A stretch of 64,000 nucleotides of DNA from Escherichia phage Ecwhy_1: the sequence record MH791411.1, one strand, 5' to 3'. Both the position numbers and the translations under genes were made by a program. The notes below the pieces were generated by a model. The model was not told the DNA's origin, did no database searches, and was given only the letters and a program-made list of their open reading frames with translations. Below are positions 1 through 64,000 of this stretch, in pieces; within the stretch, counting starts at the first letter, position 1, and the number at the start of each line of letters is the position of its first letter.

Positions 1-495
1 TTCTGAATCTATTTTACTATACAAATCGAACATGTCAAGTAGATATTGATATGTATATGACTCCGATGACACACATGATTCTTGAAATAGACGTTCTTCC
101 ATATCATTTACTACTTCATCATTTGCGTCTCGAATCACACCATCTTTGTATGTGTAGTAAATCTCATCCCATTCATCTGATAAGCGGAATAGTAAAGGTT
201 TACCATTAAACATCTCAAGGTCATATGCATTGACTTCACTCAATAACATATCATCAGGATCAGGTGTGAAATCGAATTGAGCGAGTGAAGAACCATCATA
301 ATCCTTAAGGAATACACCAATAGCATTCAATTTAACTTCGCCATAATTGCCATTCTTGAACTTTACACGAATATTAATATCAATGTTTTGAACAGTATCA
401 TCATCTTGGAATTGATAATCAATTTTATACTTTTCCCAAAGTTTTTTAATATCTTTAAAGTACTTAATTTTACTTTCTATTTCTTTAAAGTTCAT
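1..495 (-). CDS. Fam-A paralog, partial (3' end beyond window)
   Basis: ATG at 495-493 on minus strand, open to position 1; contains EERLFQES core. Confidence 0.5.
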   Translation of the reverse strand, partial: MNFKEIESKIKYFKDIKKLWEKYKIDYQFQDDDTVQNIDINIRVKFKNGNYGEVKLNAIGVFLKDYDGSSLAQFDFTPDPDDMLLSEVNAYDLEMFNGKPLLFRLSDEWDEIYYTYKDGVIRDANDEVVNDMEERLFQESCVSSESYTYQYLLDMFDLYSKIDSE

Positions 496-1087
496 CTGGA
501 ACCGCCATCTCTTGTATGTTCTTGCATTTTATCATTGCACAATTAGTATGTAAAATGATAGCGTACTTGTGTAATGATTTAATTTTATAACACTCATTAA
601 GTACTGAAATGATGCCCCATAACTCTTCTACATCAATAGTGATAGGTTCACTAGTACTAAGTTGCATTAGTGCTGCTTCCACATCATCTTTGTTATTGAT
701 TTTGAACTGCATACCACGTTTCAGTATTTTGGTTTTTGGGTTATACTCTGCCATTACATCACCTTCAGGGTAACCCTCGTGTAATAATAATGTAGTCTCA
801 TAATCTCCACAATTGAAATTAATTTCATCATAGTCAGGAACACAAATCATTCCTTCACCATATTGATTATCTACTGATTCGATTGTTAAAATACGCTGAT
901 GTTCATTACTCAGGATAATAGAATCATGCCAGTACTGCGTAGTGAATTTACTACGTTTCTTTTGACAGCACATACTTGACATGGGACCATACTTTTTATA
1001 TAGGGACTTCTTGAATGCTATCGCATCAGGAGCCACCTTAATAACTTCTCGAATTAGGTCAATAGCTTCTTGATAACTTTTTCTCAT
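485..1087 (-). CDS. hypothetical protein, divergent Fam-A
   Basis: track ORF 485..1123 trimmed to internal ATG overlapping upstream stop (ATGA); C-terminal LMQLSTSEP resembles Fam-A core. Confidence 0.5.
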   Translation of the reverse strand: MRKSYQEAIDLIREVIKVAPDAIAFKKSLYKKYGPMSSMCCQKKRSKFTTQYWHDSIILSNEHQRILTIESVDNQYGEGMICVPDYDEINFNCGDYETTLLLHEGYPEGDVMAEYNPKTKILKRGMQFKINNKDDVEAALMQLSTSEPITIDVEELWGIISVLNECYKIKSLHKYAIILHTNCAMIKCKNIQEMAVPDEL

Positions 1088-1635
1088 TTGTCGTACCCAT
1101 ATAAAATATGATCTAGTGTGCATTGTACTTCTTCATGGAAGAACAGTGGGTAAATTTGTATCAATTTTTCTTTAAGTTCAAGTGAATGGCATAATTCTAA
1201 TGCTTTGATACAATCTTCATATTGAACTAAGCTATGTATTGTACTTAACTGGAAATGTTGTTCTTCAGAGTAAGCTAAATCATATACCAAATTATCATCT
1301 AAAAGGTTTGATTTCTTTGAAGGATCAAGTACTGTGTTGCTATGACCTACCCAGAAAAAAGCATTGGTGTTCATATTATTACAACCCCAACCTGCCCCCA
1401 TTTTCTGGTGAATAGCAAAGACACAACTATCATAGAGATTAATACCAAGACGTTCTTCGTTGACATAAATCGTAACACCATCGATTGTCATGGTTATTTG
1501 GAAACGCATTGAACCTTCACTTCGTGAACGTGCACAGAAGCCAAGATAACGGTTAATAATTGTATTGATTTTATCTGCCCATCCTTCCACATCTTTGGAT
1601 GCACATAATTTAAAAAGATCATGACTTTGATTCAT
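1084..1635 (-). CDS. Fam-A paralog
   Basis: core EEQHFQLSTIH; tightly coupled to neighbours. Confidence 0.6.
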   Translation of the reverse strand: MNQSHDLFKLCASKDVEGWADKINTIINRYLGFCARSRSEGSMRFQITMTIDGVTIYVNEERLGINLYDSCVFAIHQKMGAGWGCNNMNTNAFFWVGHSNTVLDPSKKSNLLDDNLVYDLAYSEEQHFQLSTIHSLVQYEDCIKALELCHSLELKEKLIQIYPLFFHEEVQCTLDHILYGYDK

Positions 1636-1646
1636 GTAGTTCTCCG

Positions 1647-2228
1647 TTAATCAAGCATAAGTGGCATCATCGCCCATATCTTTTTCATAATCATATCTTC
1701 AGTAAAAACAAACGTTTTAGGTGCAGTATATGATATTGACAACCCAAATGGAAGTACGATTGCATCATCAATTATATTATGAATATCAAACCATGTTTTT
1801 ACACAATCATATGGTGGAAGTTCATGTATTGTACTTAACTGAAAGTATTGTTCTTCACCAAATGTACTGCAATCAATATCACAAATTTTAGTGAATTGAT
1901 GATTCCATTTAGATATAATACTGTTTTTATTATTGAACATATTAGTTCTATGCATGAAACCATTTCTGCTAATATGATTTGATATTGCGTTTTCTTCAAT
2001 ATCATTGCTTATTTTAAAATTCATGTCAAAGTTGTAGTGCGAACTCGACGATTCTTTGAATTTTAAATGAAAATAACGATTGTTATTAATTTCCATTTCA
2101 ATACAAAACACATCCGAATCAAAACGATTAAACTTGTAATCGTTGTCTTCAGGTAGAGTCTGTAGTTTTTTCATAACACCAAGCATAGGGTGCACTAAGC
2201 TTCTAATAAAATCATTAGTTATTTTCAT
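1647..2228 (-). CDS. Fam-A paralog
   Basis: core EEQYFQLSTIH. Confidence 0.6.
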   Translation of the reverse strand: MKITNDFIRSLVHPMLGVMKKLQTLPEDNDYKFNRFDSDVFCIEMEINNNRYFHLKFKESSSSHYNFDMNFKISNDIEENAISNHISRNGFMHRTNMFNNKNSIISKWNHQFTKICDIDCSTFGEEQYFQLSTIHELPPYDCVKTWFDIHNIIDDAIVLPFGLSISYTAPKTFVFTEDMIMKKIWAMMPLMLD

Positions 2229-2721
2229 AGTATTCCTTTAGAACTTTAAATGATTCAACAATACAATCTTGTGTGTAATTAGAACTATATACAATTGCAT
2301 TTGATTTGATTGACCACAGATATGACATAAAGGTTATAACACTACTACATGAACTTAATGTATTGTTTTGGAATTCATTTTCTTCAATGTTATCAGTACT
2401 GGTATTGATGAATTGGATAGTATCTTGTTTCTGATTAGACATTGAAACTAAAGTACAATCAGTATAAGGAGTGTACAAAAACGTCTCATTACTAATTGAA
2501 CTATCATTAGTATATGATGGTTTGGTAATATAAATCAAACGCATGATATCACGCTCAATACCCGATTTACGACTTTCCACTAAAGAAATCATATCTATAT
2601 TTTTCATATGATCAACATTGACATGGAACTTTTTGTTTAGAATTACATCTTTTGGGGAATTTTTATATGAAGATAAGATCTCATACATCTCAACTAATTC
2701 TCGTGCATTTAATAAACTCAT
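2215..2721 (-). CDS. hypothetical protein, divergent Fam-A
   Basis: EENEFQNN motif; start uncertain. Confidence 0.45.
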   Translation of the reverse strand: MSLLNARELVEMYEILSSYKNSPKDVILNKKFHVNVDHMKNIDMISLVESRKSGIERDIMRLIYITKPSYTNDSSISNETFLYTPYTDCTLVSMSNQKQDTIQFINTSTDNIEENEFQNNTLSSCSSVITFMSYLWSIKSNAIVYSSNYTQDCIVESFKVLKEYYENN

Positions 2722-16300: not shown

Positions 16301-16710
16301 TCTTCCCCTAGATTGAAATGATTACAAAAATCAACTTCACCAGTACTGCACCAGATATCTATACATTCCCTGTGAATACATTTAATTCTACGCTGTAATT
16401 CAATCATCTCTTCTAATGTACAGATGTACTTCTTATCAAATACTAATGCCTCCTGAAACAGTGCAGCATCATCAAGTACTGTATAGTCCAACATCTCGGT
16501 TGCTTTACCCCTAAACCCAGTATTAAAATCCATCAAATAAAAGTCAGCATTTTCGTATTTTATAAGCTTGTCCCTTGTGTAGTTTAAATCACCCTTGTAT
16601 AAGTTAGAGTGCGTAACTAACTCACCAGTGTACATCCATGTCCTTGCACAAAATTCATTATATTTTATTTCCATCTTAATCTCTACTATAATTAATAAGG
16701 TAAACTCCAA
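16297..16710 (-). CDS. Fam-A paralog (DYTVLD-ELFQ subfamily)
   Basis: DYTVLDDAALFQEALVFDKKY. Confidence 0.65.
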   Translation of the reverse strand: MEFTLLIIVEIKMEIKYNEFCARTWMYTGELVTHSNLYKGDLNYTRDKLIKYENADFYLMDFNTGFRGKATEMLDYTVLDDAALFQEALVFDKKYICTLEEMIELQRRIKCIHRECIDIWCSTGEVDFCNHFNLGEE

Positions 16711-16868
16711 TATAAGGAGAACGTTCGCGGCGGGGTATTTTTTGTTTCAGGAAACATGAACTGTACTCTGAAAACACATTTTAAAACTTTATATTAAACA
16801 TATACCTTAACATGTTTTTCAGCGAAAATTTTTTTGACCCCCCAGCGGCCTGTGAAAATGAAACGTCT

Positions 16869-17084
16869 CTATTTATTCAGCCTAGAAAGCTTGATTTCTT
16901 CAATCCTTTTCATCGCACAAAGCCTTCGACTCGTCTTCTCGTATATATTCAATACTCGTTGTACTGCATCATCTGCAACTGCAATCTGAACCAAATATGT
17001 ATCCTTCAAAATCGAATCCATCATGTATTCAAAACCTTTCACACTATAACAATATACCACTTCCGGCTCTTCAAACGTAATCAT
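16869..17084 (-). CDS. hypothetical protein
   Basis: co-oriented ORF overlapping next gene start; preferred over plus-strand ORF 16812..17117. Confidence 0.4.
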   Translation of the reverse strand: MITFEEPEVVYCYSVKGFEYMMDSILKDTYLVQIAVADDAVQRVLNIYEKTSRRLCAMKRIEEIKLSRLNK

Positions 17085-17274
17085 AACTCCAATCCCCTAT
17101 TCCATCTAACCTTCTAAGATATCTTGCGTAAATTATTTCGAAATATCTGTGCAACGAAATTACGGATTGCTCATAATCATCATTCCTGTACATTGTGCAT
17201 GTAAGAAAATCATTTAAACCGTAATCTAAACTGCACTTGAACTTCTCCTTTGCAACATCTCTAAAATTATCCAT
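17071..17274 (-). CDS. hypothetical protein
   Basis: co-oriented ORF, ATG start. Confidence 0.4.
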   Translation of the reverse strand: MDNFRDVAKEKFKCSLDYGLNDFLTCTMYRNDDYEQSVISLHRYFEIIYARYLRRLDGIGDWSYDYV

Positions 17275-17428: not shown

Positions 17429-17437
17429 CAGCACCCT

Positions 17438-45628: not shown

Positions 45629-45707
45629 TTTATTTTCCTCAGTTGTCTTGATAAAATCTATTATGCCAGTACTATCAAACTATGTCAATAGCACTGTGAT
45701 AATATTT

Positions 45708-46406: not shown

Positions 46407-46430
46407 AAGCCCACCGTTTAAGGTGGGCTA
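46407..46430 (-). terminator. rho-independent terminator
   Basis: GCCCACC ... GGTGGGC hairpin followed by T6 on minus strand. Confidence 0.65.
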
Positions 46431-46450
46431 GTGATTCAGTACTTTAATTG

Positions 46451-46933
46451 TTATGCTTCAACTTTGCGATGAGATTCGATCCATTCCTCGCGAGTCATAC
46501 CGCTGGCGTTAATCGCGTCCAGTACTACCGCAATGCAGTTACCACGCACCGGAATCAGATATTCTTCCCCGTTGTCCAGTACTACCGCTACGCGTTCCTG
46601 AATCCATTTTTTGGCTTTTACTTCTGGCTTGTCTTCCCCATACTTAACCGCCAGGGCTTTTTGTGCCATCTCTGTAACTACTTCCAGATCCAATCCAACT
46701 ACTGCCGCCTGAATACTTTCGATTGTTGCTTGTAGTTCTGCTTCACGGGCCGCCTTTGCCGCTTCAATTTCTGCCGCTTTATTTGCTTGTAGTTCTTTCG
46801 CAGTACTGTACGCGATGTTAAAATTATTGCGTACCGCTTTCATGGTATCGTTATCCAGTTCAGCCAGGATCTCAGCCGCGACGTTAGTTTCATTTGCTAC
46901 CAGTGCTTTGATGAATGATTTTACATTAGCCAT
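46451..46933 (-). CDS. hypothetical protein with Ala/Glu-rich helical segment
   Basis: trimmed to MANVKSFIK; terminator directly downstream. Confidence 0.5.
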   Translation of the reverse strand: MANVKSFIKALVANETNVAAEILAELDNDTMKAVRNNFNIAYSTAKELQANKAAEIEAAKAAREAELQATIESIQAAVVGLDLEVVTEMAQKALAVKYGEDKPEVKAKKWIQERVAVVLDNGEEYLIPVRGNCIAVVLDAINASGMTREEWIESHRKVEA

Positions 46934-47142
46934 TTTATAAATCCTCAATTAAAGTTTAGTTTACGTTTATTAGTGTATCAAAGTTTTCTCGACGTGTCCA
47001 GTTTTTCGTTCGACTTACTGGCGGTCTACTTAGTGCTCCCCGTCTTGATGTAATACATTCTACGCTTTTCTGCGGTAATGTCAACTACTTTCTTAAAACT
47101 ATTTTCAAAGTATCTCAGTACTACGATACTACAAAAACAAAA

Positions 47143-47160
47143 AAGCCCACCAGGTGGGCT
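47143..47160 (-). terminator. rho-independent terminator
   Basis: GCCCACC/GGTGGGC hairpin plus T-run on minus strand. Confidence 0.6.
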
Positions 47161-47166
47161 ATGTAC

Positions 47167-47397
47167 TTAATCAGTGAGTAAAATATTAAACACTTTACCA
47201 TTTAACGTTATTGGTGCACTGCTACCAGGCACAAGATCCGTTAGTATACCTGCAATCGCTTTATCATTGGCTACCTTTCCAGTGTCCAACAGTACTACAG
47301 TACTGATAAGATTAACGCTCGTTTCAATATCATAATGCACGGCGTTAAGTAGTTGTGTAGTACTGCTTTCGTTAAGTAAAACAATTCGCTTAGTCAT
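47167..47397 (-). CDS. hypothetical small protein
   Basis: 76-aa ORF with terminator downstream. Confidence 0.45.
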   Translation of the reverse strand: MTKRIVLLNESSTTQLLNAVHYDIETSVNLISTVVLLDTGKVANDKAIAGILTDLVPGSSAPITLNGKVFNILLTD

Positions 47398-47418
47398 GAT
47401 GTTACCCCGTAGTATCTA

Positions 47419-47718
47419 TCAACGGCAATTAATAACGCCGGTATGAGTTACTTTCTCGGTATCCATTACAGTGACCGAACCGCGTTTAGCACTGGCATCA
47501 TAATAAATTGTCGTGCTACCGTTTTCGTCTTCTTCATGGAACGGGCCGTTTTTAAATGCTTCCGGCTGGATCTCTAAATCCTTTAATACAATCTCGCCAG
47601 TTCTTTCATCGGTCATTGCAACAGTGCACTGAATGAATTTTTCACTACTTACATCTAATGACGCATTAACAGCGAAAGAGGAAACAGATAAAGCCAGGGC
47701 GATGATTGCAATTTTCAT
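47419..47718 (-). CDS. secreted/periplasmic small protein (signal peptide)
   Basis: N-terminus MKIAIIALALSVSSFAVNA: charged-hydrophobic-AxA pattern. Confidence 0.5.
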   Translation of the reverse strand: MKIAIIALALSVSSFAVNASLDVSSEKFIQCTVAMTDERTGEIVLKDLEIQPEAFKNGPFHEEDENGSTTIYYDASAKRGSVTVMDTEKVTHTGVINCR

Positions 47719-47802
47719 TTGATTATCCTTAGTTACCAGGGGAAACCGTTTCCCCTTGCGATGTAAAATATTATACAGTACTAAAAACTAATTGCAAGTA
47801 CT

Positions 47803-48039
47803 TTATGATTTTTTATAAAACATTTCAGCAGTGATATTTTTACCCGTTGGCTGTACTTTATCCAGAATTTTTTGATGCCCTGGTCGTCCAAAGGAATATG
47901 ATCCGTAAACAGTAAACCAGTAGTTACCCTCAGTGTTTACATGTACAGCACAATAAGGAACACCACGCGATTCATCACTAGTAAAGTGTGATACCGTTCC
48001 CGTTACATTCGCAGACGTTGATTTGATTTGTTCGACCAT
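47803..48039 (-). CDS. hypothetical small protein
   Basis: 78-aa ORF, cassette upstream. Confidence 0.45.
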   Translation of the reverse strand: MVEQIKSTSANVTGTVSHFTSDESRGVPYCAVHVNTEGNYWFTVYGSYSFGRPGHQKILDKVQPTGKNITAEMFYKKS

Positions 48040-48147
48040 TTTCTTATTCCTTAGTTACCAGGGGAACCGCTCCCCCTATGCAAAACATTATACGCGTTTA
48101 AAAACTAATTGCAAGTATTTTAATAAAAAGTATTTGAAAAATAGTTG

Positions 48148-48290
48148 TTGACAAGTGCATCCAGTACTGGCATAATTACTACATCAAGACGAAACAGTCA
48201 CTAACCCACCGGGTGCCGAGATCCGTCTATTAAATGATTCAGTACTGAAAAAGTAACGGGGAGTTATTATCTCCCCGTGTTGTTATTTTG
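48148..48290 (+). ncRNA. candidate small RNA / orphan plus-strand transcription unit
   Basis: TTGACA-N17-CATAAT promoter (48148-48176), no ORF, ends at bidirectional terminator hairpin CGGGGAGttattatCTCCCCG plus T-run. Confidence 0.3.
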
Positions 48291-48504
48291 TAAGGTATAA
48301 ACAGAAGTCGCCTTTATTTGCTACGCCGCCAGTGTAACGCGAGGAATAGTTAGAAACGTCCTGGACTTCTGCTATTACCAGGGTATCATCATTCAATTCG
48401 TCGCAGAAGCAAACGGCTGGATCTTGTACGCCGATTTTGTCGGCATGTTCCCGCATAGATTTAACCAGTGCTTCCAGTTGGGAAAGAGTAGTGATATTAG
48501 CCAT
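48283..48504 (-). CDS. hypothetical small protein
   Basis: trimmed to MANITTLSQL. Confidence 0.45.
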   Translation of the reverse strand: MANITTLSQLEALVKSMREHADKIGVQDPAVCFCDELNDDTLVIAEVQDVSNYSSRYTGGVANKGDFCLYLTK

Positions 48505-48588
48505 TTTATTTTCCTCATTACCAGGGAGAACCATTTCTCCCTTTGATGTAAACCATTATACAGTACTGAAAACTAATTGCAAGTACTT

Positions 48589-48777
48589 TTAATTAAATTC
48601 CATAAAATCATTTTCAACGTGCACAACAATCTGATTATTTTTAAAGGACGCAGAAAACTCTATACAATCATAAACCGCTTTTTCTGTTACCAGACTATGA
48701 GCACCAATCGGATTAATTGGGGATTGAATTGTTTCAATCTCGTTACCTTGTTCATTAACGATTAAAATATTAAACAT
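48589..48777 (-). CDS. hypothetical small protein
   Basis: 62-aa ORF, ATG verified. Confidence 0.45.
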   Translation of the reverse strand: MFNILIVNEQGNEIETIQSPINPIGAHSLVTEKAVYDCIEFSASFKNNQIVVHVENDFMEFN

Positions 48778-48816
48778 TGCCGTTACTCCTGGATAGTGTT
48801 AACTCGATATAAAGTA

Positions 48817-48999
48817 TTATACGCCTTTATTGCTTAGTGTCCAGTGATCACGCATCATACGCCCCGCACGATCCCAGCTAGTAGGCATGGGTATGCCTTG
48901 CAATTCGTTAGGGGAGATCTCGACCTCGATCCCTACATCAATAACAGTCATTCCAGCTTTCGCAGCTTGCTCGCGGATAACCTCAGATAATGTTGTCAT
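48817..48999 (-). CDS. hypothetical small protein
   Basis: 60-aa ORF. Confidence 0.4.
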   Translation of the reverse strand: MTTLSEVIREQAAKAGMTVIDVGIEVEISPNELQGIPMPTSWDRAGRMMRDHWTLSNKGV

Positions 49000-49073
49000 G
49001 ATTAAAGCTCCTGGATAGTGTTAACTCGATATAAAGTATTATACAGTACTGAAAACTAATTGCAAGTACTTTT

Positions 49074-49334
49074 TTAATATTGTTTGTCGTCGTCTTCCTC
49101 GATGAATTGACCGACGAAATGATCTACTTTCGCTTTGAGGCTTTTATAATCTTCTTCTACTTCCGTTAAACGTTCCTGGTAGTATTCCAATGCTTCAAGA
49201 TACGCCGCCTCAGCAGTTTTTGCACGCATAGCTAAATTCATTCCACGCGTTTCATCAAATAGCCAATAACCATCGGTGCACTGGCTAATAGATAATGACT
49301 TGCTTAGTACTGTATAGCTAATTACTTTACTCAT
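49074..49334 (-). CDS. hypothetical protein
   Basis: 86-aa ORF with terminator-like hairpin downstream. Confidence 0.45.
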   Translation of the reverse strand: MSKVISYTVLSKSLSISQCTDGYWLFDETRGMNLAMRAKTAEAAYLEALEYYQERLTEVEEDYKSLKAKVDHFVGQFIEEDDDKQY

Positions 49335-49391
49335 TAGATAACCCTCAGTAAAGGCGGGAACTATTACCCGCCATTATCTCAGTACTGAATA

Positions 49392-49631
49392 TTACATTCC
49401 AACCATTGCAGCACGGATCGCAGTAGTGCTATACTTAAAGCCGTCCGGCGTTGTAGTAGTACCGTTGGCTTTTAATCTGCGGTACATACATTCCGCAGCA
49501 ATATCTTTAGTTCTACTTTGTGCGATGCAACTTTGAGCAAGCCGATACAATGACTCACCGTTATTAATCCAAAGGCTTACATTCCAATGAGTTTTGTTTT
49601 TGTGTCCGTTGTAAGTTTTAGTACTAGCCAT
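49392..49631 (-). CDS. hypothetical protein (paralog of 51432..51671)
   Basis: shared GHKNKTHWNVSLWINN ... TPDGFKYSTTAIRAAMVGM. Confidence 0.55.
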   Translation of the reverse strand: MASTKTYNGHKNKTHWNVSLWINNGESLYRLAQSCIAQSRTKDIAAECMYRRLKANGTTTTPDGFKYSTTAIRAAMVGM

Positions 49632-49721
49632 TTTTAAATCCTCGTTTGAGCGGGGAACCACTCCCCGCCTCGATATAAAGTATTATACGCTTTTAAACTT
49701 AGTTTGCAAGTACTTTTTAAA

Positions 49722-50333
49722 TTAATATTCGATTGATTCCACTACGCCATCAATAACATTGAATTGATACTCGTTACCCTCAATCAGTGCCGTAATGTTT
49801 TCAGTAGTGAATTGATCCTCATATGCATTCTCTAAATCACGGTACAACTTGCGGGACAATTCACGAATAGTTTCAGTGAGTAGTTCCTCAAGCTCATTAA
49901 CTAACGTTTCTTGTTTTGCGGTTAAATCAGTGTAAGCCGATTCAATGTACCCGCTTACAGTATTCTCATGCGAGTAGTGGGAGTGCGAACGTTTTACACT
50001 CATCGCCAAATCATCTTCATTCAGCAAGTGACGGATTGAGCGATACTTAGTTAATGCTCTTACCTTGCGTAAAAACTTCACTGCGTCAACGTGGTCAGTA
50101 CTGATTGATGCACCGTCACCCTGGGACCAAAAACCACTGAATTGTATTTCAGCGTCATTAATGCCATATTCCGGTAGTACTGTTTCTTTATAGTATTCAA
50201 TTTCACTTTCAGAAAAATAATTGTCGTTTGAGTTTTTTTCACGTTCCCGAACCAGTTCGATAGCTGACGTTTGTTGTTCTGCGTTCAATTCAGAAAAAGC
50301 CATAACATAAGTAGTAGTAGTGATAGTTTTCAT
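49722..50333 (-). CDS. hypothetical protein
   Basis: 203-aa ORF; FSGFWSQGDGASI motif of unknown affiliation; tandem promoters upstream. Confidence 0.5.
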   Translation of the reverse strand: MKTITTTTYVMAFSELNAEQQTSAIELVREREKNSNDNYFSESEIEYYKETVLPEYGINDAEIQFSGFWSQGDGASISTDHVDAVKFLRKVRALTKYRSIRHLLNEDDLAMSVKRSHSHYSHENTVSGYIESAYTDLTAKQETLVNELEELLTETIRELSRKLYRDLENAYEDQFTTENITALIEGNEYQFNVIDGVVESIEY

Positions 50334-50557
50334 TTTGTAACCCTCATTCAGTAGTTGATGTAAGTATTATACGCTTTTAAAAACATTTGTCAAACTATTT
50401 TATCAGGGGAGTTTTTCGTGTGCCTTACTCCTGGGCTACTTAACGGGAAGTTACTTATTTCGTTCCCCGTCCTGATGTAAAACATTATACGCCTTTAAAC
50501 ATAGTTTGCAAGTACTTTTTAAAAATAGTTTTCAGTACTGAATAGTAAAAAAAAGTA

Positions 50558-50586
50558 TTGACAGCATTATCAAGTACTGGTATAAT
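50558..50586 (+). promoter_or_regulatory. orphan sigma70-type promoter TTGACA-N17-TATAAT
   Basis: plus strand, no ORF downstream; faces minus-strand promoter at 50702-50730. Confidence 0.5.
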
Positions 50587-50701
50587 ATACCCCATGACAA
50601 CAGCTAACCCACCGGGTGCACAATTGTAACTATACTAAACTAATTTTTCTATAGATACACTCCCGCACCCTATGGGCTACGGCTTATCTGCCAATGAATA
50701 C

Positions 50702-50730
50702 ATTATGCCAGTACTGACAAAATAAGTCAA
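50702..50730 (-). promoter_or_regulatory. sigma70-type promoter TTGACT-N17-CATAAT (convergent partner)
   Basis: read on minus strand; leader contains AGCCCATAGGGTGC. Confidence 0.5.
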
Positions 50731-50760
50731 TACCGGCAATTGTAAAGATTTGTAAACTGC

Positions 50761-50997
50761 TTATACTGCAATCGCGTCCAGGCTATAATAATAATAAGTG
50801 CCGTATTGGTGTACTTTATTACCTTTTATTTCAGTACTGAATGAATCCGAACGGTTTGCATATGATGTTAATTTAAAGTACTTTGATTTGCTGATACGTT
50901 GCCATACACCACAGATCCGCTGTAAGTAAGTAGTTTTATTCGTGGTAGTATCTTTTACGGTTTTAACTTCAGTCATATACATATTAGTCATTTTCAT
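50761..50997 (-). CDS. hypothetical small protein
   Basis: 78-aa ORF. Confidence 0.4.
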   Translation of the reverse strand: MKMTNMYMTEVKTVKDTTTNKTTYLQRICGVWQRISKSKYFKLTSYANRSDSFSTEIKGNKVHQYGTYYYYSLDAIAV

Positions 50998-51078
50998 TAC
51001 TCCAGGTTATAGGCGGGAAGAGTTCCCGCTCTCGATGTAAAACATTATACGCCATTAAACATAGTTTGCAAGTACTTT

Positions 51079-51342
51079 TTATTCAAGTACTGCAATCTTT
51101 TTAGTACGGTACACGGTCACGCGGTTGCCCTTTCGGTCGAGCTTTATTTCTACCACTCGACGCGATACACTATCGGGACTTTTTAAGGCCGCTAACCAGT
51201 ACTGTAATGATCTGGCGGTACTACGCTTTACAATGGCCCAACGTTTACCACGTTCCGATTGTACGCCCATATCTTTAAACGTTGCCCCGTCCTGGCGTGC
51301 GGCGATCCGAGCTTGTTCACGCGTCGCAAAATACTTAATTTT
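51079..51342 (-). CDS. hypothetical protein (paralog of 37669..38073)
   Basis: trimmed to MKIKYFATREQ; shared motifs with 37669..38073. Confidence 0.5.
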   Translation of the reverse strand, partial: KIKYFATREQARIAARQDGATFKDMGVQSERGKRWAIVKRSTARSLQYWLAALKSPDSVSRRVVEIKLDRKGNRVTVYRTKKIAVLE

Positions 51343-51431
51343 CATGCTGTTGCCCTTATCGTTGGTGTATGAATAAAACACTATTATAAAGTACTATCGC
51401 AAAAAAATGATAGTACTTTAAATAAATTCTA

Positions 51432-51671
51432 TTACATTCCAACCATCGCCGCACGGATCGCAGTAGTGCTATATTTGAATCCGTCCGGTGTTTTATCTTG
51501 TCCAGTCTGTTCTAAAAATAACATCATATGACGGGCCGCATCATTGCGATTAGTGCTATCGTTAATAAAGTCCTGGGCCAACCGATACAATCCCTCATCG
51601 TTATTAATCCAAAGGCTTACATTCCAATGAGTTTTGTTTTTGTGACCTAAGAACATTTTTGATTTAGCCAT
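51432..51671 (-). CDS. hypothetical protein (paralog of 49392..49631)
   Basis: trimmed to MAKSKMF; C-terminus identical to paralog. Confidence 0.55.
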   Translation of the reverse strand: MAKSKMFLGHKNKTHWNVSLWINNDEGLYRLAQDFINDSTNRNDAARHMMLFLEQTGQDKTPDGFKYSTTAIRAAMVGM

Positions 51672-51764
51672 TTTTTTAATCCTCTTATATAGTGGGGAAC
51701 TATTCCCCACCTGATGTAAAACATTATACGCCATTAAACATAGTTTGCAAGTACTTTATTAAAC

Positions 51765-52127
51765 TTATTTGTAAATTTTGCCACTGTCAGCCCATACCAG
51801 GAAACGAGGCATATTATCCCATGCATCTTGTTTTAAGTTTAAGCCGTGCAATTCCTCAGTTGTTGCCATCCCTGGTACTGGCTTACTACACACCGCGAAA
51901 TTTTCGCCCATATACTGATAAACCATCGTCAAATCATTTGAGATCATTATATGGATCATTGAATCCAGCATCAAAGTAGCGGCGTATTGTTCACGCTTAA
52001 GCGGCAACATTGCAATAAGTTCCCGATAAGCTGCAATGTGAATTTTTACAGTTTCAGCCGGAAGACCTTTCATCTCATCGCGGAAGTTTACCAGGTTAAG
52101 CATGATTTTATTGATTTGAGTCGCCAT
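51765..52127 (-). CDS. hypothetical protein
   Basis: trimmed to MATQINKIML. Confidence 0.45.
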   Translation of the reverse strand: MATQINKIMLNLVNFRDEMKGLPAETVKIHIAAYRELIAMLPLKREQYAATLMLDSMIHIMISNDLTMVYQYMGENFAVCSKPVPGMATTEELHGLNLKQDAWDNMPRFLVWADSGKIYK

Positions 52128-52490
52128 CGTTTTAATCTCTCTTAATGTGTAGCGGGAAGTGTTCCCGCTCTCGATGTAAAACATTATACGCTTTTATCAG
52201 TACGGTGCAAGTACTTTCTACAAATACTTTTAAAATAGTTTTCTTTCTATATAGGAGTACTATTATTCAGTACTGCAATCATCCAGGGGAACTATCTTTC
52301 TATATAGGAGTACTATTATTCAGTACTGAATCAATCCACTAAATCATCCCTATACCCCGTAAAACGTCCTCAGACGCATTCTAACGCATTAATACACATA
52401 AGCTATACATTTGCACCATTCCAATCATTCCAGGGCTTTACAGGCCGTTTAAACGCGTTAAATTATTTTCAATTATTTTGTTTTTAGGTA

Positions 52491-52518
52491 TTGACTTGAT
52501 CCTGAAAAAGCGTATAAT
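52491..52518 (+). promoter_or_regulatory. orphan sigma70-type promoter TTGACT-N16-TATAAT
   Basis: plus strand in ORF-poor region. Confidence 0.45.
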
Positions 52519-52716
52519 TACTACATAGACGCGAGAAAGCGGATACCCCAGGGGGTGGGAAGATCCGTCCAAAATTCAAGATATAAAAAAAGGATACACT
52601 CCCGCACCCTAGCAGGTAAACGCACTTTCTCAGTACTGAAATATAGTACCATAGTCCGGCCCAGGATAGCAAGCAAATTAATTAAAACTTTTTTGCTTCC
52701 AGGGTATTGCTTTATT

Positions 52717-52744
52717 TTTCCAGTACTGTATAATAGTTCCATCA
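52717..52744 (+). promoter_or_regulatory. orphan promoter (TTGCTT ... CAGTACTG-TATAAT)
   Basis: plus strand; leader contains AGCCCACCGGGTGC. Confidence 0.4.
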
Positions 52745-52956
52745 AGTCGAGAAAGACTCAAGCCCACCGGGTGCATAGTTACGCCCAAAATTCAGTACTG
52801 AAAAAATTTTTAAAAATATCCGGCCAGGCCGTTGACATTGCCCCCAGTTTATAAGATAATGATTCCAGATTCAGAAAAATCTAACACCAGATACTGCGGG
52901 GAAACTATCCCCACGCGGTAGGGGAACTATTGGAAAAAACAAAATAAAATTTTGAT

Positions 52957-53100
52957 TTAGCCGTCTATACTTCCAGACGTGTAACCATCTAGCCGTTTAG
53001 CCGTCCAAACGTCTAGCCATCCAGCCATCCAGAAATCTAGCCGTTTAGCCGTCTAGATGGATAGCCATCTTTACTTCCAGACTTCTGGAGGGCTAGACAT
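52957..53100. repeat. 8-bp periodic tandem repeat array (about 18 units, consensus TAGCCGTC)
   Basis: in-register 8-mers tagccgtc/tagccgtt/tagccatc/cagccatc ...; flanked by TACTTCCAGAC repeats and CCAGAcTTCTGG palindrome. Confidence 0.7.
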
Positions 53101-54166
53101 ATCTACGCCCAAAATCCATCCAGGGTAACTACGCCCAAAATCCGTCAGTACTATACCATAGATCTATCTTTTGAAAGGGAGTATTCAGTACTGCCATCAT
53201 AGCCCTCACTATGTTACCCTAGGAGGATGAAGACCATCATGTAGTACTGAATACTGTTAGAGGGAATCCACCAGCTTGTGCTGGTGGCATAATGCTTTAG
53301 ATTAAAATCAGTACTGACACCATTCTGTTAATATCAGTACTGTTATTACGATTTTCATATGAGGTTCAAAAAGATGTACCACCACAGGAGGAACTATCTT
53401 TTCTGTACTGTCTCACGACAGGAGGTAGAGTAAATGAATTGTTCGCAGCAACTCATCACCCTATGTAGAACATTATACAGTACTGAATCATAAAGTCAAT
53501 AACTTTCTTTCATCTTTCAGTACTGATATTCTTGAGAACTACCCGACTACAAACATCATTATATCCCACAAATCATAAACGTCCCAACGTAAATTTCAAC
53601 TTTCGAAGATCCAACTTTTATTTCATAGGTACTCCAAAATTTTTAGGATCGAGATTTAGGATGGAGTACTAACCAACTTTTTGCTGGAGCCTCAAGGGGT
53701 AATGGAATTTTACCCCGAAGGGTAAAGGGGTAATTGAAATTAAGGTGAAAGTAATAATTCAGTACTAATCATTGCGTGATTACTTTTGATTACATTTGAT
53801 GTAATTTGCAAAATGGAAAAGGAGCTTGGAAACTACAAAGTACGGCAGACTTCCTCTGCCTACTTAGTGGGATATCGCCACCTTCAGTACTGAATACTTT
53901 TAGGGCAGTACTGAATCCTTCCCTAGCATTCTTGAGTAATCTTGTCTATAATAATCAGTACTGAATCATATATAATCATTCTGTGATTCTACGGTGCTCA
54001 TATAAATGTTTATATATGATTACTTATGACTACATATGATTACGGGGTTTAGCCTGGGGAGAATCCTAGTGATCGCATTTGTCCAGGCTGAATTTTAACA
54101 ATTCTTCTAATTGTTAAAGCCTGTCCAATGCTTTCCCTGCGGAGCTTCCCCTGTCTATATGTTGAA

Positions 54167-60037: not shown

Positions 60038-60062
60038 GCCAGTACTTGATACTGGCTTTTTT
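60038..60062 (+). terminator. rho-independent terminator
   Basis: GCCAGTActtgaTACTGGC hairpin plus T6. Confidence 0.65.
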
Positions 60063-60096
60063 GATTAAATATAGTATAATGAATAAAGGAGGAAAT

Positions 60097-61212: not shown

Positions 61213-61245
61213 GCCAGTACTTGAGTACTGGCTTTTCTTTTTGAT
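61213..61245 (+). terminator. rho-independent terminator
   Basis: GCCAGTACttgaGTACTGGC hairpin plus T-run. Confidence 0.65.
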
Positions 61246-62459: not shown

Positions 62460-62466
62460 CATTATA

Positions 62467-62500
62467 CCAGTACTGAAATACGTACTGGTATTTTTTTTGT
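62467..62500 (+). terminator. rho-independent terminator
   Basis: CCAGTACtgaaatacGTACTGG hairpin plus T8. Confidence 0.6.
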
Positions 62501-62535
62501 AAATACATTATAATTATTATATGGAGATTTTAGTT

Positions 62536-63729
62536 ATGTTACCTTTTGCAAGAATGGTTAAGTACGGGAATAAACTGCCTATTCCTGAACCAGTTGAGTT
62601 CACTGATGTTTTACAGCAACATTATACTAATGCTATGTATCTACATAAGCCCACGAATACACTATACGGTTATGGTGGTAATAACTTGAGCCAATTAGGT
62701 CTAGGGAATCAATCGGCAGTTTCAACTTTTACAGTACTGGCAACGCACTGTGCAGCCTTTTGGTTAGGCGTTCATGGATCATTGATGATTGACTTGGATA
62801 ATAGAATATATTTCACAGGGAATACAGTAGCATTCCCCGATTATGGAGATGCAACTCCAGTTAATGGTTATTTTAGAACATGGACTGATGTTACTGCCGC
62901 ATTTAACAAAATAAATATACACGCTAATTTAATCAAGAGTGTACATATAGGTGAAAGTACTAGAATATTACTACACGATGGAAGAGTCGTTGTTTGTGGT
63001 AAAAATGCAAATGCCGAATGTGGAACAGGTAACCAAAATCCCATTCCAGTACTAACAGTTGTTACTGGTATGGGTGAAGTTTCTCAATTGGCGTGTTCAT
63101 TACAGGGTACGCACTATCTCAAAACAAATAAAGAAGCATGGTTTTGTGGTAAGGATAACTTTGGTGAAAGTGGTGGTGGGACTAGCTCATACGTTTTTAC
63201 TAATAAATTAATACGAACCAACGTCGATTATATAAGTACTACTTATGATGTTACCTGGTGGTTTACTGCCGGTAGGGTGTACTGGAGTGGTAGAAACAAT
63301 TCTGGACAAGCTGGGAATGGTACTACTTCAACTACAAACCAATTAACTACAGTTCAGAATTCACAGGTTATAGTGAATATTAGTGATGGTTTCCTGTGTC
63401 CTAGTAATATGGGTAACTCAACAATTGGTGCACCTATGGCTCAATACCCATCATATGTCAGGAGTGCAGGCATCAATACATATGGTCAAGAAGGGACGGG
63501 AAATACAACAATAATTACTTCGTGGGGGGCGTTTTCTTTAAGTGCGATACAGGGTGGATATGACAATGTTCTTATGGCATCCAAAGACTGGTCCAGAACA
63601 ATAATTATAACTAAAGATTATAAATTATATGCATGTGGGGGCTTTAACGGTTCAGGTAGTAAATTACCGGATGGTACTTACTTAATTAAAACATTAACAT
63701 TAATGCCAACGCAGTTATGGCAACAATAG
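62536..63729 (+). CDS. RCC1-like repeat protein
   Basis: track ORF 62521..63729 trimmed to MLPFARMVKYGN; RCC1-type repeats. Confidence 0.65.
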   Translation: MLPFARMVKYGNKLPIPEPVEFTDVLQQHYTNAMYLHKPTNTLYGYGGNNLSQLGLGNQSAVSTFTVLATHCAAFWLGVHGSLMIDLDNRIYFTGNTVAFPDYGDATPVNGYFRTWTDVTAAFNKINIHANLIKSVHIGESTRILLHDGRVVVCGKNANAECGTGNQNPIPVLTVVTGMGEVSQLACSLQGTHYLKTNKEAWFCGKDNFGESGGGTSSYVFTNKLIRTNVDYISTTYDVTWWFTAGRVYWSGRNNSGQAGNGTTSTTNQLTTVQNSQVIVNISDGFLCPSNMGNSTIGAPMAQYPSYVRSAGINTYGQEGTGNTTIITSWGAFSLSAIQGGYDNVLMASKDWSRTIIITKDYKLYACGGFNGSGSKLPDGTYLIKTLTLMPTQLWQQ

Positions 63730-63737
63730 GAGGAATT

Positions 63738-64000
63738 ATGTTACCTTTTGTAAGACTATTTGATTATGGGAATATTACACCTGGTCCTAAAAATATAATA
63801 AAAGTTGGTGCTTCTACACAAGGTCAATTCGTATTGACTGATTCACATGAATTATATTACATAGGCAGAAATCAAGGTGGTGAATCTGGAAATGGTAATA
63901 AAAACACGGTATCTTCTTGGACATTAGTAAGTGCAGATGTTTCTAATTTTTTCACTGGAGGACGAACACTTGTTATTATTAAAAATGACAATACGATATG
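63738..64000 (+). CDS. RCC1-like repeat protein, partial (continues past window end)
   Basis: AGGAGG SD then ATG; N-terminus MLPFVRLFDYGN; coupled to previous gene. Confidence 0.6.
   Translation, partial: MLPFVRLFDYGNITPGPKNIIKVGASTQGQFVLTDSHELYYIGRNQGGESGNGNKNTVSSWTLVSADVSNFFTGGRTLVIIKNDNTI

What the first reader, a model, noticed from the sequence alone, without database searches (positions are those of the whole stretch)
1..64000. Strong over-representation of the palindromic octamer CAGTACTG (ScaI-site core AGTACT)
CAGTACTG and close variants (AAGTACTT, CCAGTACTGG) occur dozens of times: in the spacer of many promoters just upstream of the -10, immediately upstream of the -35 in a second promoter class (AGTACTTGCA), in plus-strand terminator stems (GCCAGTAC..GTACTGGC), and at least 11 times in the ORF-poor region 53150-54000. 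An 8-mer of this composition should be rare by chance in AT-rich DNA of this length. A perfect palindrome this enriched suggests a dimeric DNA-binding protein site, a DNA-modification or partition motif, or a structural part of the mobile cassettes; phages usually deplete rather than enrich host restriction sites.
Basis: seen in the sequence. Interest (0 to 1): 0.7.

Follow-up and report, generated by a model that had tools for sequence, protein, structure and literature searches.

The report
Iterated AGTACT palindrome saturating phage genomes
The 8-letter palindrome CAGTACTG (core AGTACT) is a selectively maintained DNA word written about every 200-400 bases through the whole genome of these giant E. 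coli phages and of an unrelated prophage family, which points to an undescribed genome-wide DNA signal whose reader is unknown.

Summary
The window is from an Asteriusvirus (RaK2-like jumbo coliphage, 98% identical to fEgEco12). It holds 282 AGTACT (about 20 expected) and 69 CAGTACTG (0.6 expected), the commonest 8-mer.

- **Not a by-product.** Promoter consensus and Ser-Thr codons do not explain it. 200 sites lie in ORFs in all three frames. 42-70% of synonymous opportunities are used.
- **Genome-wide.** fEgEco12 has 977 sites against 111 expected. Spacing is more even than random, and sites are conserved about 2-fold above controls.
- **Clade distribution.** It occurs in RaK2, GAP32 and CBB, but not in PA5oct, T4 or E. 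coli.
- **Second lineage.** An unrelated family of about 31-34 kb Enterobacterales prophages has the same grammar and no shared gene except a lysozyme.
- **Companion trait.** Every carrier also has zero GCGC.
- **Terminal repeat.** Here the word is built into 38 of 48 early promoters at fixed positions (-39, -19/-20) and into terminator stems.
- **Exception blocks.** One block replaces it with AGTACA on one strand only (41:0). A neighbouring co-transcribed block carries the opposite orientation.

Best reading (confidence about 0.35): an orientation-readable cis-signal of the Chi/AIMS type, with the palindrome as its two-way form. SlmA and the phage methyltransferases are not supported.

The parts
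1..64000 (.). Field of 282 AGTACT sites, 69 of them the full octamer CAGTACTG. The logo is hAGTACTd: C is favoured and G disfavoured at -1, mirrored at +1, with no information beyond.
31912..53864 (-). Direct terminal repeat, collapsed to one copy in this assembly. It holds about 58 small early genes and 140 AGTACT (40 octamers), the densest region. Of 48 sigma70-type promoter-like sites, 38 carry AGTACT at fixed positions. One class has it at -39 fused to TTGCAA (AGTACTTGCAA). The other has it at -19/-20 abutting the -10 element (cAGTACTG-TATAAT). Several promoters have both, 20 bp apart.
   Evidence: Mapped to fEgEco12 positions 1-20993. The terminal repeat is annotated in vB_Ec-M-J. Promoter table; counts.
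52180..53864 (-). Non-coding leader of about 1.7 kb at the physical genome end (fEgEco12 position 1 = window 53864). It holds 17 AGTACT (10 octamers), mostly as ttCAGTACTGaa.
53865..53963 (.). Three more ttCAGTACTG copies just outside the repeat boundary, in unique DNA upstream of the right-hand repeat copy.
16501..24400 (-). Block Z1. It has no AGTACT. Instead the one-base variant AGTACA occurs 41 times on the coding strand and TGTACT 0 times. The variant occupies all three frames, has the same C(-1)/G(+1) flanks, and sits in dispersed contexts. The pattern is conserved across the genus, with site turnover.
24401..26550 (-). Block B. It has palindromic AGTACT (14) plus AGTACA (10). The orientation of the asymmetric variant and the GC/AT skews change here. 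It is fully coding, with no iterons and no AT-rich non-coding stretch.
26551..31911 (-). Block Z2, a tandem array of 21 paralogous genes of about 80 aa. It has no AGTACT. The variant appears in the opposite orientation: TGTACT 9 (1.3 expected) against AGTACA 2 on the coding strand, mostly as cTGTACTg.
60038..60063 (+). Terminator-like hairpin built from the motif (GCCAGTACTTGATACTGGC followed by a T-run), between RCC1-like paralogues.
61213..61243 (+). Terminator-like hairpin made of two abutting copies (GCCAGTACT-TG-AGTACTGGC followed by a T-run).
62465..62500 (+). Terminator-like hairpin (ACCAGTAC-TGAAATAC-GTACTGGT followed by T8).

Best explanation
**Shown.** (C)AGTACT(G) is a cis-acting DNA word that selection keeps at high and even density along the whole chromosome of RaK2-like jumbo phages. 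The same holds, independently, for a family of Enterobacterales prophages. It is not a by-product of promoters, codons, paralogy or base composition.

**Inferred mechanism.**
- The functional unit is an oriented word, 5'-cAGTAC(T/A)g-3'. A factor that processes or tracks along phage DNA reads it in an orientation-sensitive way.
- The closest analogues are Chi and other architecture-imparting sequences. A protective or recombination-directing signal is the leading idea. A replication-linked signal such as priming is a second possibility.
- The perfect palindrome is the two-way form, presenting the word on both strands, so it works whichever direction the machine arrives from.
- Where polarity appears fixed, the two blocks flanking a switch point at window 24.4-26.5 kb, the one-way form is used instead, in opposite orientations on the two sides.
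- Density peaks at the genome ends, which would be the entry points for such a machine.
- In the gene-crowded terminal repeat the word is accommodated inside promoter spacers, upstream of the -35 element, and in terminator stems.

The reader protein is unidentified. Because unrelated phages share the grammar but no detectable gene, a host-clade factor or convergent evolution is more likely than one shared phage gene.
For: - **Enrichment survives codon controls and uses all frames.** 42-70% of synonymous opportunities are realised, 196 of 329 in total.
- **Genome-wide in fEgEco12.** 977 sites against 111 expected. AGTACT is the only over-represented palindromic hexamer, with observed/expected 8.8 against 1.7 for the next.
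- **Spacing more even than Poisson.** Gap CV 0.886 against 0.997 +/- 0.038. Largest gap 1976 bp against 2947 +/- 521. Empty 1 kb windows 13 against 26.
- **Sites conserved above matched hexamers.** 30% against 12-15%, 72% against 45-47%, and in prophages 63-85% against 41-61%.
- **Highest density at the termini**.
- **Oriented variants.** Z1 has AGTACA 41:0 in the window, 43:0 in fEgEco12 and 45:0 in 121Q. Turnover occurs but lost sites are never AGTACT in the other genome.
- **Opposite orientation in Z2.** TGTACT 9 against 1.3 expected, although Z2 is co-transcribed with Z1. GC and AT skews shift at the same place.
- **Same grammar in unrelated prophages.** 140 against 8.6 expected, with C at -1 in about 60%. 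Only a lysozyme is shared.
- **The signature toggles at prophage and IS1 borders inside one Leclercia chromosome**.
- **Relatives outside the clades lack it.** PA5oct, the DCP80 segment and T4.
Against: - No reader was identified.
- The word is not the known enterobacterial Chi (GCTGGTGG).
- It is not enriched in E. coli DNA (3 against 4.8 expected in 50 kb). A host self-protective signal would be expected to be enriched there.
- Block B has no recognisable origin structure.
- The Z2 orientation bias is modest on its own (9:2, P = 0.065). The three genomes showing it are related, so they are not independent.
- The sharply fixed operator-like positions in 38 of 48 early promoters fit a DNA-binding regulator at least as well.
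- A symmetric flank preference is what a dimeric double-stranded DNA binder predicts.
- Only 50 kb samples of RaK2, GAP32, CBB and PA5oct were examined.
Confidence: 0.35

Rival explanations
1. The word is a binding site for an abundant sequence-specific homodimer on duplex DNA. The protein could be a small phage protein of the ribbon-helix-helix or MetJ type that recognises an 8-bp box, or a hijacked or titrated host regulator. It would mark or coat the phage chromosome. In the terminal repeat it would act as an operator that shuts off or tunes the early promoters.
For: - The palindrome is perfect and the flank preference is symmetric.
- AGTACT sits at -39 and at -19/-20, overlapping the -35 and -10 elements, in 38 of 48 early promoters. 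The two sites are 20 bp apart.
- The word is about 46-fold rarer per kb in host DNA, so a binder would be phage-selective.
- Even coverage of the genome.
- Small ribbon-helix-helix-type proteins would escape the BLASTP comparison of the two phage families.
Against: - It cannot explain why Z1 maintains AGTACA on one strand only (41:0).
- It cannot explain why co-transcribed Z2 carries the opposite orientation.
- The recognised unit is only 6-8 bp even at unconstrained intergenic sites.
- There is no helical phasing.
- The promoter cassettes are paralogous copies, so the fixed positions represent few independent events.
- The prophage family shows no fixed promoter placement.
- The one host protein known to bind an AGTACT-centred palindrome, SlmA, fails its sequence requirements.
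Confidence: 0.3
2. The palindrome is linked to modification or restriction. It would be the target of a methyltransferase, nicking enzyme or restriction-like enzyme. Its abundance would be driven or permitted by that enzyme, as proposed for HIP1 and its cognate methyltransferase in cyanobacteria, or by very-short-patch-type biased repair.
For: - The site has the size and symmetry of a type II recognition site (ScaI/Eco255I type).
- The jumbo phages encode a conserved C5-methyltransferase and an N6-adenine methyltransferase.
- The genomes are otherwise under extreme restriction-site purging, so roughly 1000 tolerated sites suggest protection.
Against: - RaK2 authors report 5mC in a CpG context, and AGTACT has no CpG (stated as data not shown in PMC3622015).
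- All 18 one-mismatch variants are at or above expectation except AGGACT/AGTCCT. The deamination product AGTATT is not depleted, with observed/expected 1.3.
- The prophage family has no homologue of either methyltransferase. No methyltransferase domain was found in its non-structural ORFs that were tested.
- A uniform enzymatic drive does not explain the native-like Z blocks.
- A host-wide drive is excluded by the sharp toggling at prophage and IS1 borders.
Confidence: 0.1
3. The word acts at the RNA level. AGUACU in transcripts would be a site for an RNase or RNA-binding protein, or a self-complementary pairing word that builds hairpins and RNA-RNA contacts.
For: - Pairs of copies form terminator and regulatory hairpins in both phage families.
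- Z1 uses a coding-strand-specific variant.
- The Z1 word (CAGUACAG) is the exact complement of the Z2 word (CUGUACUG).
Against: - An RNA signal has no need to be a palindrome with symmetric flanks.
- Sites are equally dense in the non-transcribed-looking terminal leader and across genes of all expression classes.
- Six to eight base pairs is too weak for stable RNA pairing.
- The orientation flip between two co-transcribed blocks is not expected for a single RNA reader.
Confidence: 0.07
4. The enrichment is an ordinary by-product. Candidate sources are the promoter consensus, Ser-Thr (AGT-ACT) codon pairs, amplification of paralogous genes or cassettes, base composition, or displacement from other avoided palindromes.
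For: - Many window genes belong to paralogous families, and the promoter cassettes are repeated.
- GTAC itself and AGT/ACT/GTA codons are common.
Against: - Sites occur in all three frames.
- Counts are 4-fold above synonymous shuffles and 8-fold above an order-3 Markov model for the octamer.
- Density is 2-3 per kb in single-copy structural and replication genes, and it is conserved in four genera.
- Site conservation is above matched hexamers.
- The feature is absent from T4, PA5oct and E. coli at similar composition.
Confidence: 0.02

Closest known systems
HIP1 (GCGATCGC), the highly iterated palindrome of cyanobacteria
   Same: It is an octameric perfect palindrome. It is present genome-wide at roughly one per kb or more, in coding DNA in all frames and in non-coding DNA. 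It is lineage-wide, and its function has long been unclear. HIP1 and its embedded CGATCG methylation are described in PMC6604393.
   Different: HIP1 is a feature of cellular genomes (its occurrence in their phages is my own recollection). It is tied to a cognate methyltransferase. Here the carriers are phages whose hosts lack the word. No cognate methyltransferase is supported. Strand-specific one-base variants occupy defined blocks.
Chi (GCTGGTGG) and other architecture-imparting oriented words such as KOPS
   Same: These are 8-mers that are over-represented and spread along the chromosome. They are read in one orientation by a DNA-tracking machine, and their polarity flips at replication landmarks. 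Chi protects DNA ends from degradation. This is established knowledge, not tested here.
   Different: The sequence is different. The common form here is a palindrome, which is unprecedented for Chi or KOPS. The host genome is not enriched in it. No tracking enzyme has been linked to it. Canonical Chi is separately enriched in the jumbo phage (24 and 12 copies against about 2-6 expected) but is absent from the prophage.
SlmA-binding sequence (GTGAGTACTCAC) of the E. coli nucleoid-occlusion factor
   Same: The central hexamer AGTACT is identical. The site is a palindrome read by a dimeric TetR-family protein (PMC3020112). That SlmA is restricted to the host clade of these phages is my own recollection and was not checked.
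   Different: SlmA needs G1, T2 and a purine at position 3 (PMC3020112). The phage word has C at position 3 in 44-60% of sites, with G the least used base, and no GT at positions 1-2. There are 0 full SlmA sites in the window, in fEgEco12 or in the prophage.
Short palindromic operators of dimeric repressors (for example the 8-bp MetJ metbox AGACGTCT, or Arc/Mnt-type ribbon-helix-helix operators)
   Same: They are 8-bp palindromes. In the terminal repeat the placement overlaps the -35 and -10 promoter elements.
   Different: Operators number a few per genome and lie at promoters. Here there are about 1000 sites, 86% of them inside genes. There are also oriented variants.
Restriction-site avoidance in phages, and the single-orientation EcoP15I sites of T7
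   Same: The same genomes show textbook palindrome avoidance: 25 hexamers and GCGC at zero. A single-orientation block of an asymmetric site recalls T7's evasion of type III restriction, which is established knowledge.
   Different: AGTACT and its oriented variants are enriched 7-16-fold rather than avoided, which is the opposite of what restriction pressure produces.

Membership tests
Sigma70 promoter element (part of the -35/-10 architecture) | Fixed position relative to the -10 and -35 hexamers | tested here: met
   In the terminal repeat, AGTACT sits at -39 in 19 promoters and at -19/-20 in 21. In all, 38 of 48 promoters carry it.
Sigma70 promoter element (part of the -35/-10 architecture) | Confined to intergenic DNA upstream of genes; promoter words are normally avoided inside genes | tested here: not met
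   200 of the window's 282 sites and 837 of 977 genome-wide sites are inside ORFs. Outside the repeat, intergenic and coding densities are similar at 3.1 and 2.6 per kb. The prophage family shows no fixed promoter placement.
Highly iterated palindrome (HIP1-like) | Octameric palindrome at one per kb or more, genome-wide, in all reading frames and in non-coding DNA | tested here: met
   Density is 2.6-6.5 per kb. Frames are 72/49/79. CAGTACTG is the top 8-mer.
Highly iterated palindrome (HIP1-like) | Conserved across a whole lineage | tested here: met
   Found in Asteriusvirus, RaK2, GAP32 and CBB, and across a prophage family that diverges to 27-50% amino-acid identity.
Highly iterated palindrome (HIP1-like) | Cognate DNA methyltransferase acting on the palindrome | tested here: inconclusive
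   A C5-methyltransferase and an N6-adenine methyltransferase are present in the jumbo phages. RaK2 5mC is reported at CpG. No homologue and no methyltransferase domain was found in the prophage ORFs tested. Methylation state cannot be tested here.
Chi / architecture-imparting oriented word | Over-represented 8-mer distributed along the chromosome | tested here: met
Chi / architecture-imparting oriented word | Orientation-dependent, with polarity that flips at a replication landmark | tested here: inconclusive
   The main form is a palindrome, so it has no polarity. The one-base variants are oriented: Z1 41:0, Z2 2:9, with a skew shift between them. No origin structure was found in block B.
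Chi / architecture-imparting oriented word | Sequence recognised by the host RecBCD (GCTGGTGG in enterobacteria) and enriched in the host genome | tested here: not met
   The sequence is different. An E. coli 50 kb sample has 3 AGTACT against 4.8 expected.
SlmA-binding sequence | A4, G5 and a pyrimidine at position 6 (central AGYRCT) | tested here: met
   The core AGTACT equals positions 4-9 of GTGAGTACTCAC.
SlmA-binding sequence | G1, T2 and a purine at position 3, each required for binding | tested here: not met
   At position 3, C is 44-60% and G 5-9%. There is no GT preference at positions 1-2. There are 0 full sites. Half-sites number 31 among the 977 fEgEco12 AGTACT, about 3%.
Host restriction target (ScaI/Eco255I-type site) | Depleted in phages exposed to the enzyme | tested here: not met
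   The site is enriched 8.8-16-fold, while 25 other palindromic hexamers are at zero.

The most novel reading that the evidence does not exclude
Unrelated phages of Enterobacterales (giant lytic myoviruses and small temperate siphoviruses) have converged on a two-word sequence code that sets their DNA apart from host DNA. One word is a positive, orientation-readable signal, cAGTAC(T/A)g, written every 200-400 bp. Its palindromic form works in both directions. The other is the complete absence of GCGC. The code would be read by a so far unknown host-clade DNA-processing or defence machine, or by convergently evolved phage factors. That machine would decide the survival, replication or recombination of incoming DNA. 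This would be a phage-borne counterpart of Chi-type self-recognition that has not been described.
Probability: 0.25. Interest if true: 0.9.

Novelty: new variant of a known kind. Interest (0 to 1): 0.8.

Why it matters
Phages are expected to purge short palindromes, and these genomes do so to an extreme degree. Yet they spend a large share of their coding freedom on one palindrome, using half or more of all synonymous opportunities and also shaping protein sequence. That implies a strong function that has gone unrecognised.

The system is tractable, for four reasons:
- It occurs in cultured coliphages.
- It occurs in a 31 kb prophage small enough to recode synthetically.
- Natural one-way variant blocks serve as built-in controls.

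There is also practical value. The pair of traits (AGTACT-rich, GCGC-free) is a simple sequence signature for spotting these phages and prophage borders. It also matters for engineering or recoding therapeutic jumbo phages.

Tried and rejected
- **Promoter-only or Ser-Thr codon explanation.** Rejected by frame counts and by synonymous-codon and codon-permutation shuffles.
- **Z blocks as recently acquired foreign DNA.** Rejected. They share the genome's palindrome purge (0 against about 17 expected avoided hexamers, plus 0 against about 6 GCGC). Their codon usage matches neighbours (r = 0.83-0.88). The Z2 paralogues are old (median 36% identity). Z1 is present across the genus.
- **Z1 AGTACA as decayed AGTACT sites or a single paralogous protein motif.** Rejected. 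Contexts are dispersed, all frames are used, and each lineage has its own gains that are never AGTACT in the other genome.
- **Methyltransferase-driven biased repair.** Not supported.
- **SlmA as reader.** Rejected on its published sequence requirements.
- **A shared phage-encoded reader.** BLASTP of the prophage ORFs against all fEgEco12 ORFs found only a lysozyme. Pfam, PHROGs and PDB searches of the non-structural prophage proteins gave an HNH nuclease, a GIY-YIG nuclease and unknowns.
- **Mobile genes poor in the word.** HNH and GIY-YIG genes of fEgEco12 have 5 sites against 9.1 expected, P = 0.11, which is inconclusive.
- **Helical phasing of sites.** None found.
- **Origin-like structure in block B.** None found.
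- **Exact-match scan of bacterial species-representative genomes for the prophage.** No hit. The host was instead inferred from protein homologues.
- **Literature.** Seven searches and five papers read on fEgEco12, CBB, RaK2, Sharanji and SlmA. None mentions the motif.
- **GCGC converted to GTAC by double deamination.** Considered as a source and rejected on numbers. About 200 expected GCGC cannot supply about 870 excess AGTACT, and the intermediates are not depleted.

Full report
**Identity of the window.**
- The window is 98% identical to Escherichia phage fEgEco12 and matches about 50 Asteriusvirus records. These are RaK2-like jumbo myoviruses of 350-380 kb.
- Alignment to fEgEco12 shows the window reads, in reverse orientation, through three parts:
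  - unique small-gene arrays (window 1-31.9 kb);
  - one collapsed copy of the roughly 21 kb direct terminal repeat (31,912-53,864);
  - the unique DNA that precedes the right-hand repeat copy (53.9-64 kb).
- fEgEco12 position 1, the physical genome end, corresponds to window 53,864.
- The fEgEco12 paper confirms the 20,993-bp repeats. It also shows the DNA is cut as predicted by ten ordinary restriction enzymes, so the DNA is not globally hypermodified (PMC13070987).

**Checking the observation.**
- CAGTACTG occurs 69 times (0.62 expected) and AGTACT 282 times (19.8 expected).
- Under an order-3 Markov model the octamer is still 8-fold over-represented, and it is the commonest 8-mer of the window.
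- With mechanically called ORFs, 200 sites are in coding DNA in all three frames (72/49/79) and 82 are intergenic.
- Coding counts compared with two nulls:

| Region | Observed | Synonymous-codon shuffle | Codon permutation |
|---|---|---|---|
| 1-16.5 kb | 65 | 17.9 +/- 3.5 | 7.1 +/- 2.6 |
| Terminal repeat | 74 | 17.4 +/- 3.9 | 6.0 +/- 2.5 |

- Where the protein sequence allows AGTACT by synonymous choice, it is used in 42-70% of cases, 196 of 329 in total.
- The specific claims about promoters, terminator stems and the ORF-poor region at 53,150-54,000 are all correct.

**Scope.**
- I fetched the whole fEgEco12 genome. With one repeat copy it has 977 AGTACT against 111 expected, and the complete record has 261 CAGTACTG against 5.6 expected.
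- Density is 2-3 per kb through structural and replication genes. It is 6-8 per kb in the terminal repeats and just upstream of the right repeat.
- The logo carries information only at +/-1. C is favoured and G disfavoured at -1, with the mirror image at +1. This holds even at unconstrained intergenic sites.
- Among the 64 palindromic hexamers, AGTACT is the sole over-represented one (observed/expected 8.8; the next is 1.7). Twenty-five are at exactly zero, and GCGC is also zero.
- In the 290 kb core the spacing is more even than random. Gap CV is 0.886 against 0.997 +/- 0.038. The largest gap is 1,976 bp against 2,947 +/- 521. Empty 1 kb windows number 13 against 26.
- There is no 10-11 bp phasing.

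**Phylogenetic depth.**
- Fifty-kilobase samples of other genera show the same enrichment and zero GCGC: RaK2 125 against 11, GAP32 105 against 15, CBB 118 against 16.
- In eleven orthologous genes, sites are positionally conserved above matched controls:
  - fEgEco12-GAP32: 30% against 12-15%.
  - GAP32-CBB: 72% against 45-47%.
- Most sites nonetheless turn over while density stays constant.
- The distant relative PA5oct (3 against 14.3), T4 (6 against 9.6) and E. coli K-12 (3 against 4.8, with 342 GCGC) lack both traits.

**A second, unrelated carrier.**
- A scan of viral contigs for two nearby octamers recovered a family of roughly 25-34 kb contigs.
- They have AGTACT at 109-140 against about 8 expected, C at -1 in about 60%, GCGC at 0 against about 50 expected, and 13-17 purged hexamers.
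- They are siphoviruses, with a lambda-type terminase and portal, a protease-capsid fusion, a tape measure and a J-like fibre.
- The family is diverse, down to 27-50% amino-acid identity between members.
- BLASTP finds only a T4-type lysozyme shared with fEgEco12.
- Capsid homologues lie on chromosome-sized contigs of Leclercia (74-91% identity), and more distantly in Yersinia, Rouxiella, Serratia and Pantoea. They are therefore prophages of Enterobacterales.
- Inside one Leclercia chromosome the signature toggles at sub-kb resolution:
  - Prophage DNA: AGTACT 3-10 per kb, GCGC 0.
  - An IS1 inserted in the prophage, and host-like flanks: AGTACT 0, GCGC 6-11 per kb.
- This rules out a host process acting on all DNA in the cell.
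- Site conservation is again elevated, at 63-85% against 41-61%.
- A relative at 40% terminase identity, the siphovirus-like part of the apparently chimeric DCP80 record, lacks both traits.

**Local uses in the window.**
- The terminal repeat has 48 strong sigma70-type promoter-like sites on the gene strand.
  - AGTACT sits at -39, fused to a TTGCAA -35 element, in 19 of them.
  - It sits at -19/-20, abutting the -10 element, in 21 of them.
  - In promoters with a CATAAT -10 element, the motif supplies a canonical extended -10 TG.
  - Several promoters have both sites.
- The cassettes are paralogous, so these represent few independent events.
- The prophages show no such fixed placement.
- In both families, pairs of copies form GCCAGTACT...AGTACTGGC hairpins.
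- The 1.7 kb non-coding leader at the genome end holds 17 sites.

**The exception blocks.**
- Two blocks totalling 13.3 kb have no AGTACT. At most 2 of 59 synonymous opportunities are used, P about 2e-20.
- They are not foreign:
  - They obey the palindrome purge.
  - They share codon usage with their neighbours.
  - Z2's 21 paralogues have diverged to a median of 36% identity.
  - Z1 is present in all 33 matching Asteriusvirus records.
- Z1 instead carries AGTACA 41 times on the coding strand and TGTACT never. All frames are used, contexts are dispersed, and the C(-1)/G(+1) flanks are unchanged.
- fEgEco12 shows 43:0 and 121Q 45:0.
- Between the window and 121Q (80% identity), 19 of 37 aligned sites are shared. 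Each lineage has about 20 private sites, and a lost site is never AGTACT in the other genome.
- Z2 is transcribed in the same direction but carries the opposite orientation. TGTACT occurs 9 times (1.3 expected) against AGTACA 2, mostly as cTGTACTg. All three genomes show this.
- The switch lies in block B, where GC skew on the coding strand rises from about +5% to about +20% and AT skew falls from about +20% to about +4%.
- Block B is fully coding and has no origin-like structure.
- The Z2 bias alone is modest (P = 0.065), and the three genomes are related, so they are not independent.

**Interpretation.**
- Shown: the word is a DNA-level feature under selection, needed along the whole chromosome, most densely at its ends. 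It is old within two unrelated phage families of one host order.
- The oriented variants are the most discriminating fact. A symmetric duplex binder gives no reason for a one-sided, strand-consistent variant whose orientation flips between co-transcribed blocks. A single RNA-level reader does not explain it either.
- I therefore favour an oriented unit, cAGTAC(T/A)g, read by a DNA-processing or tracking factor, with the palindrome as its two-way form.
- This works like Chi or other architecture-imparting words. It is not a member of those families, for three reasons:
  - The sequence differs.
  - The host genome is not enriched in it.
  - No enzyme is linked to it.
- The dimeric-binder model remains nearly as likely because of the operator-like promoter positions.
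- Enzyme-mark, RNA-level and by-product models are weaker, for the reasons given under the rival explanations.
- SlmA was a lead from memory. Its published requirements (PMC3020112) are not met.

**Novelty.**
- Seven literature searches, and the genome papers on fEgEco12, CBB, RaK2 and Sharanji, do not mention the motif.
- The nearest described phenomenon is the cyanobacterial HIP1 palindrome.

**Caveats.**
- ORFs were called mechanically.
- Other genera were sampled at 50 kb only.
- The prophage host rests on names attached to homologous proteins.
- The reader protein and any DNA chemistry at the site remain untested.

Noticed in passing
Whole window; fEgEco12 whole genome (L002-L009); 50 kb samples L010-L012: Restriction-type palindromes are purged to an extreme degree. 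The window has 0 GCGC, and 26 of 64 palindromic hexamers are at zero. fEgEco12 has 25 hexamers at zero where 4-50 copies each would be expected (GGTACC, CCATGG, CTGCAG, GCATGC, CGTACG, GGATCC and others). GCGC is also 0 in RaK2, GAP32, CBB and the prophage family, yet normal in T4, PA5oct and E. coli. One unproven possibility is a phage-encoded nuclease that targets GCGC in host DNA.
   Followed up: partly
fEgEco12 unique genome (L002-L009): The E. coli Chi sequence GCTGGTGG occurs 24 times on the + strand and 12 times on the - strand, against 1.3-6 expected under order-1 to order-3 models. It is absent from the prophage contig cA.
   Followed up: partly
window 52960-53140 (- strand): An array of short GGCTA(A/G)AC / GGATGG-type direct repeats lies in the non-coding leader about 0.7-0.9 kb from the physical genome end. 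It is distinct from the AGTACT copies and could be a packaging or replication element.
   Followed up: no
window 26327-31911 (- strand): There is a tandem array of 21-22 paralogous genes of about 70-90 aa with overlapping starts and stops and no intergenic spacers. Median pairwise identity is 36% and function is unknown. Other paralogous families of 120-210 aa fill 1-16.5 kb.
   Followed up: partly
window 58881-63729 (+ strand): Four paralogous genes of about 380-410 aa are annotated in relatives as RCC1-like or 'chromosome condensation regulator'. Each is followed by an AGTACT-based terminator hairpin and a TTGATT...TATAAT-type promoter. fEgEco12 has about 15 such genes in a row.
   Followed up: no
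fEgEco12 genome-wide: TAAATA is strongly depleted (185 against 494 expected) and TATAAATA occurs only 7 + 2 times. This fits a T4-late-like promoter word that is kept out of genes. The CBB paper predicts ATAAATA late promoters and a gp55-like sigma factor.
   Followed up: no
fEgEco12 279943-280803 (L008:29943-30803) and 61064-61588 (L004:11064-11588): A short C5-cytosine methyltransferase (286 aa) is 63% identical and syntenic to RaK2 gp194. There is also a phage-type N6-adenine methyltransferase. Their target sequences are unknown. All four NGGCCN palindromic hexamers are absent, while GGCC itself occurs 132 times.
   Followed up: partly
L137 (PQ671644.1, Escherichia phage DCP80, 1-50000): The public record looks chimeric. 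The first roughly 26 kb carries siphovirus genes (gpA-type terminase and others). The rest is T4-like (motA, ndd, rIIA), with a duplicated and inverted rIIA region.
   Followed up: partly
L138 (Leclercia sp. G3L CP088265.1, 4198663-4220471): The prophage carrying the signature is interrupted by an IS1 element at locus 17.9-18.7 kb and by a GC-rich insert at about 3-4.5 kb. At one end it has small genes free of AGTACT. One of them has a sequence that, on my reading and not from a family search, resembles DUF2971, so it may be a moron or defence gene.
   Followed up: partly
Prophage contig cA (L101:1-922; L102:1-3100 and 4112-4852): About 4.5 kb of non-structural genes contain no AGTACT, while the adjacent intergenic DNA is dense with it. 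These genes include an HNH endonuclease and unknown ORFs of 129, 254, 192 and 188 aa. The pattern is reminiscent of the jumbo phage's exception blocks.
   Followed up: partly
window 31912-53864 compared with the flanks: The window comes from an assembly in which the two terminal repeat copies are collapsed into one. It therefore joins the right-end unique DNA directly to the left-end unique DNA through a single repeat copy.
   Followed up: yes
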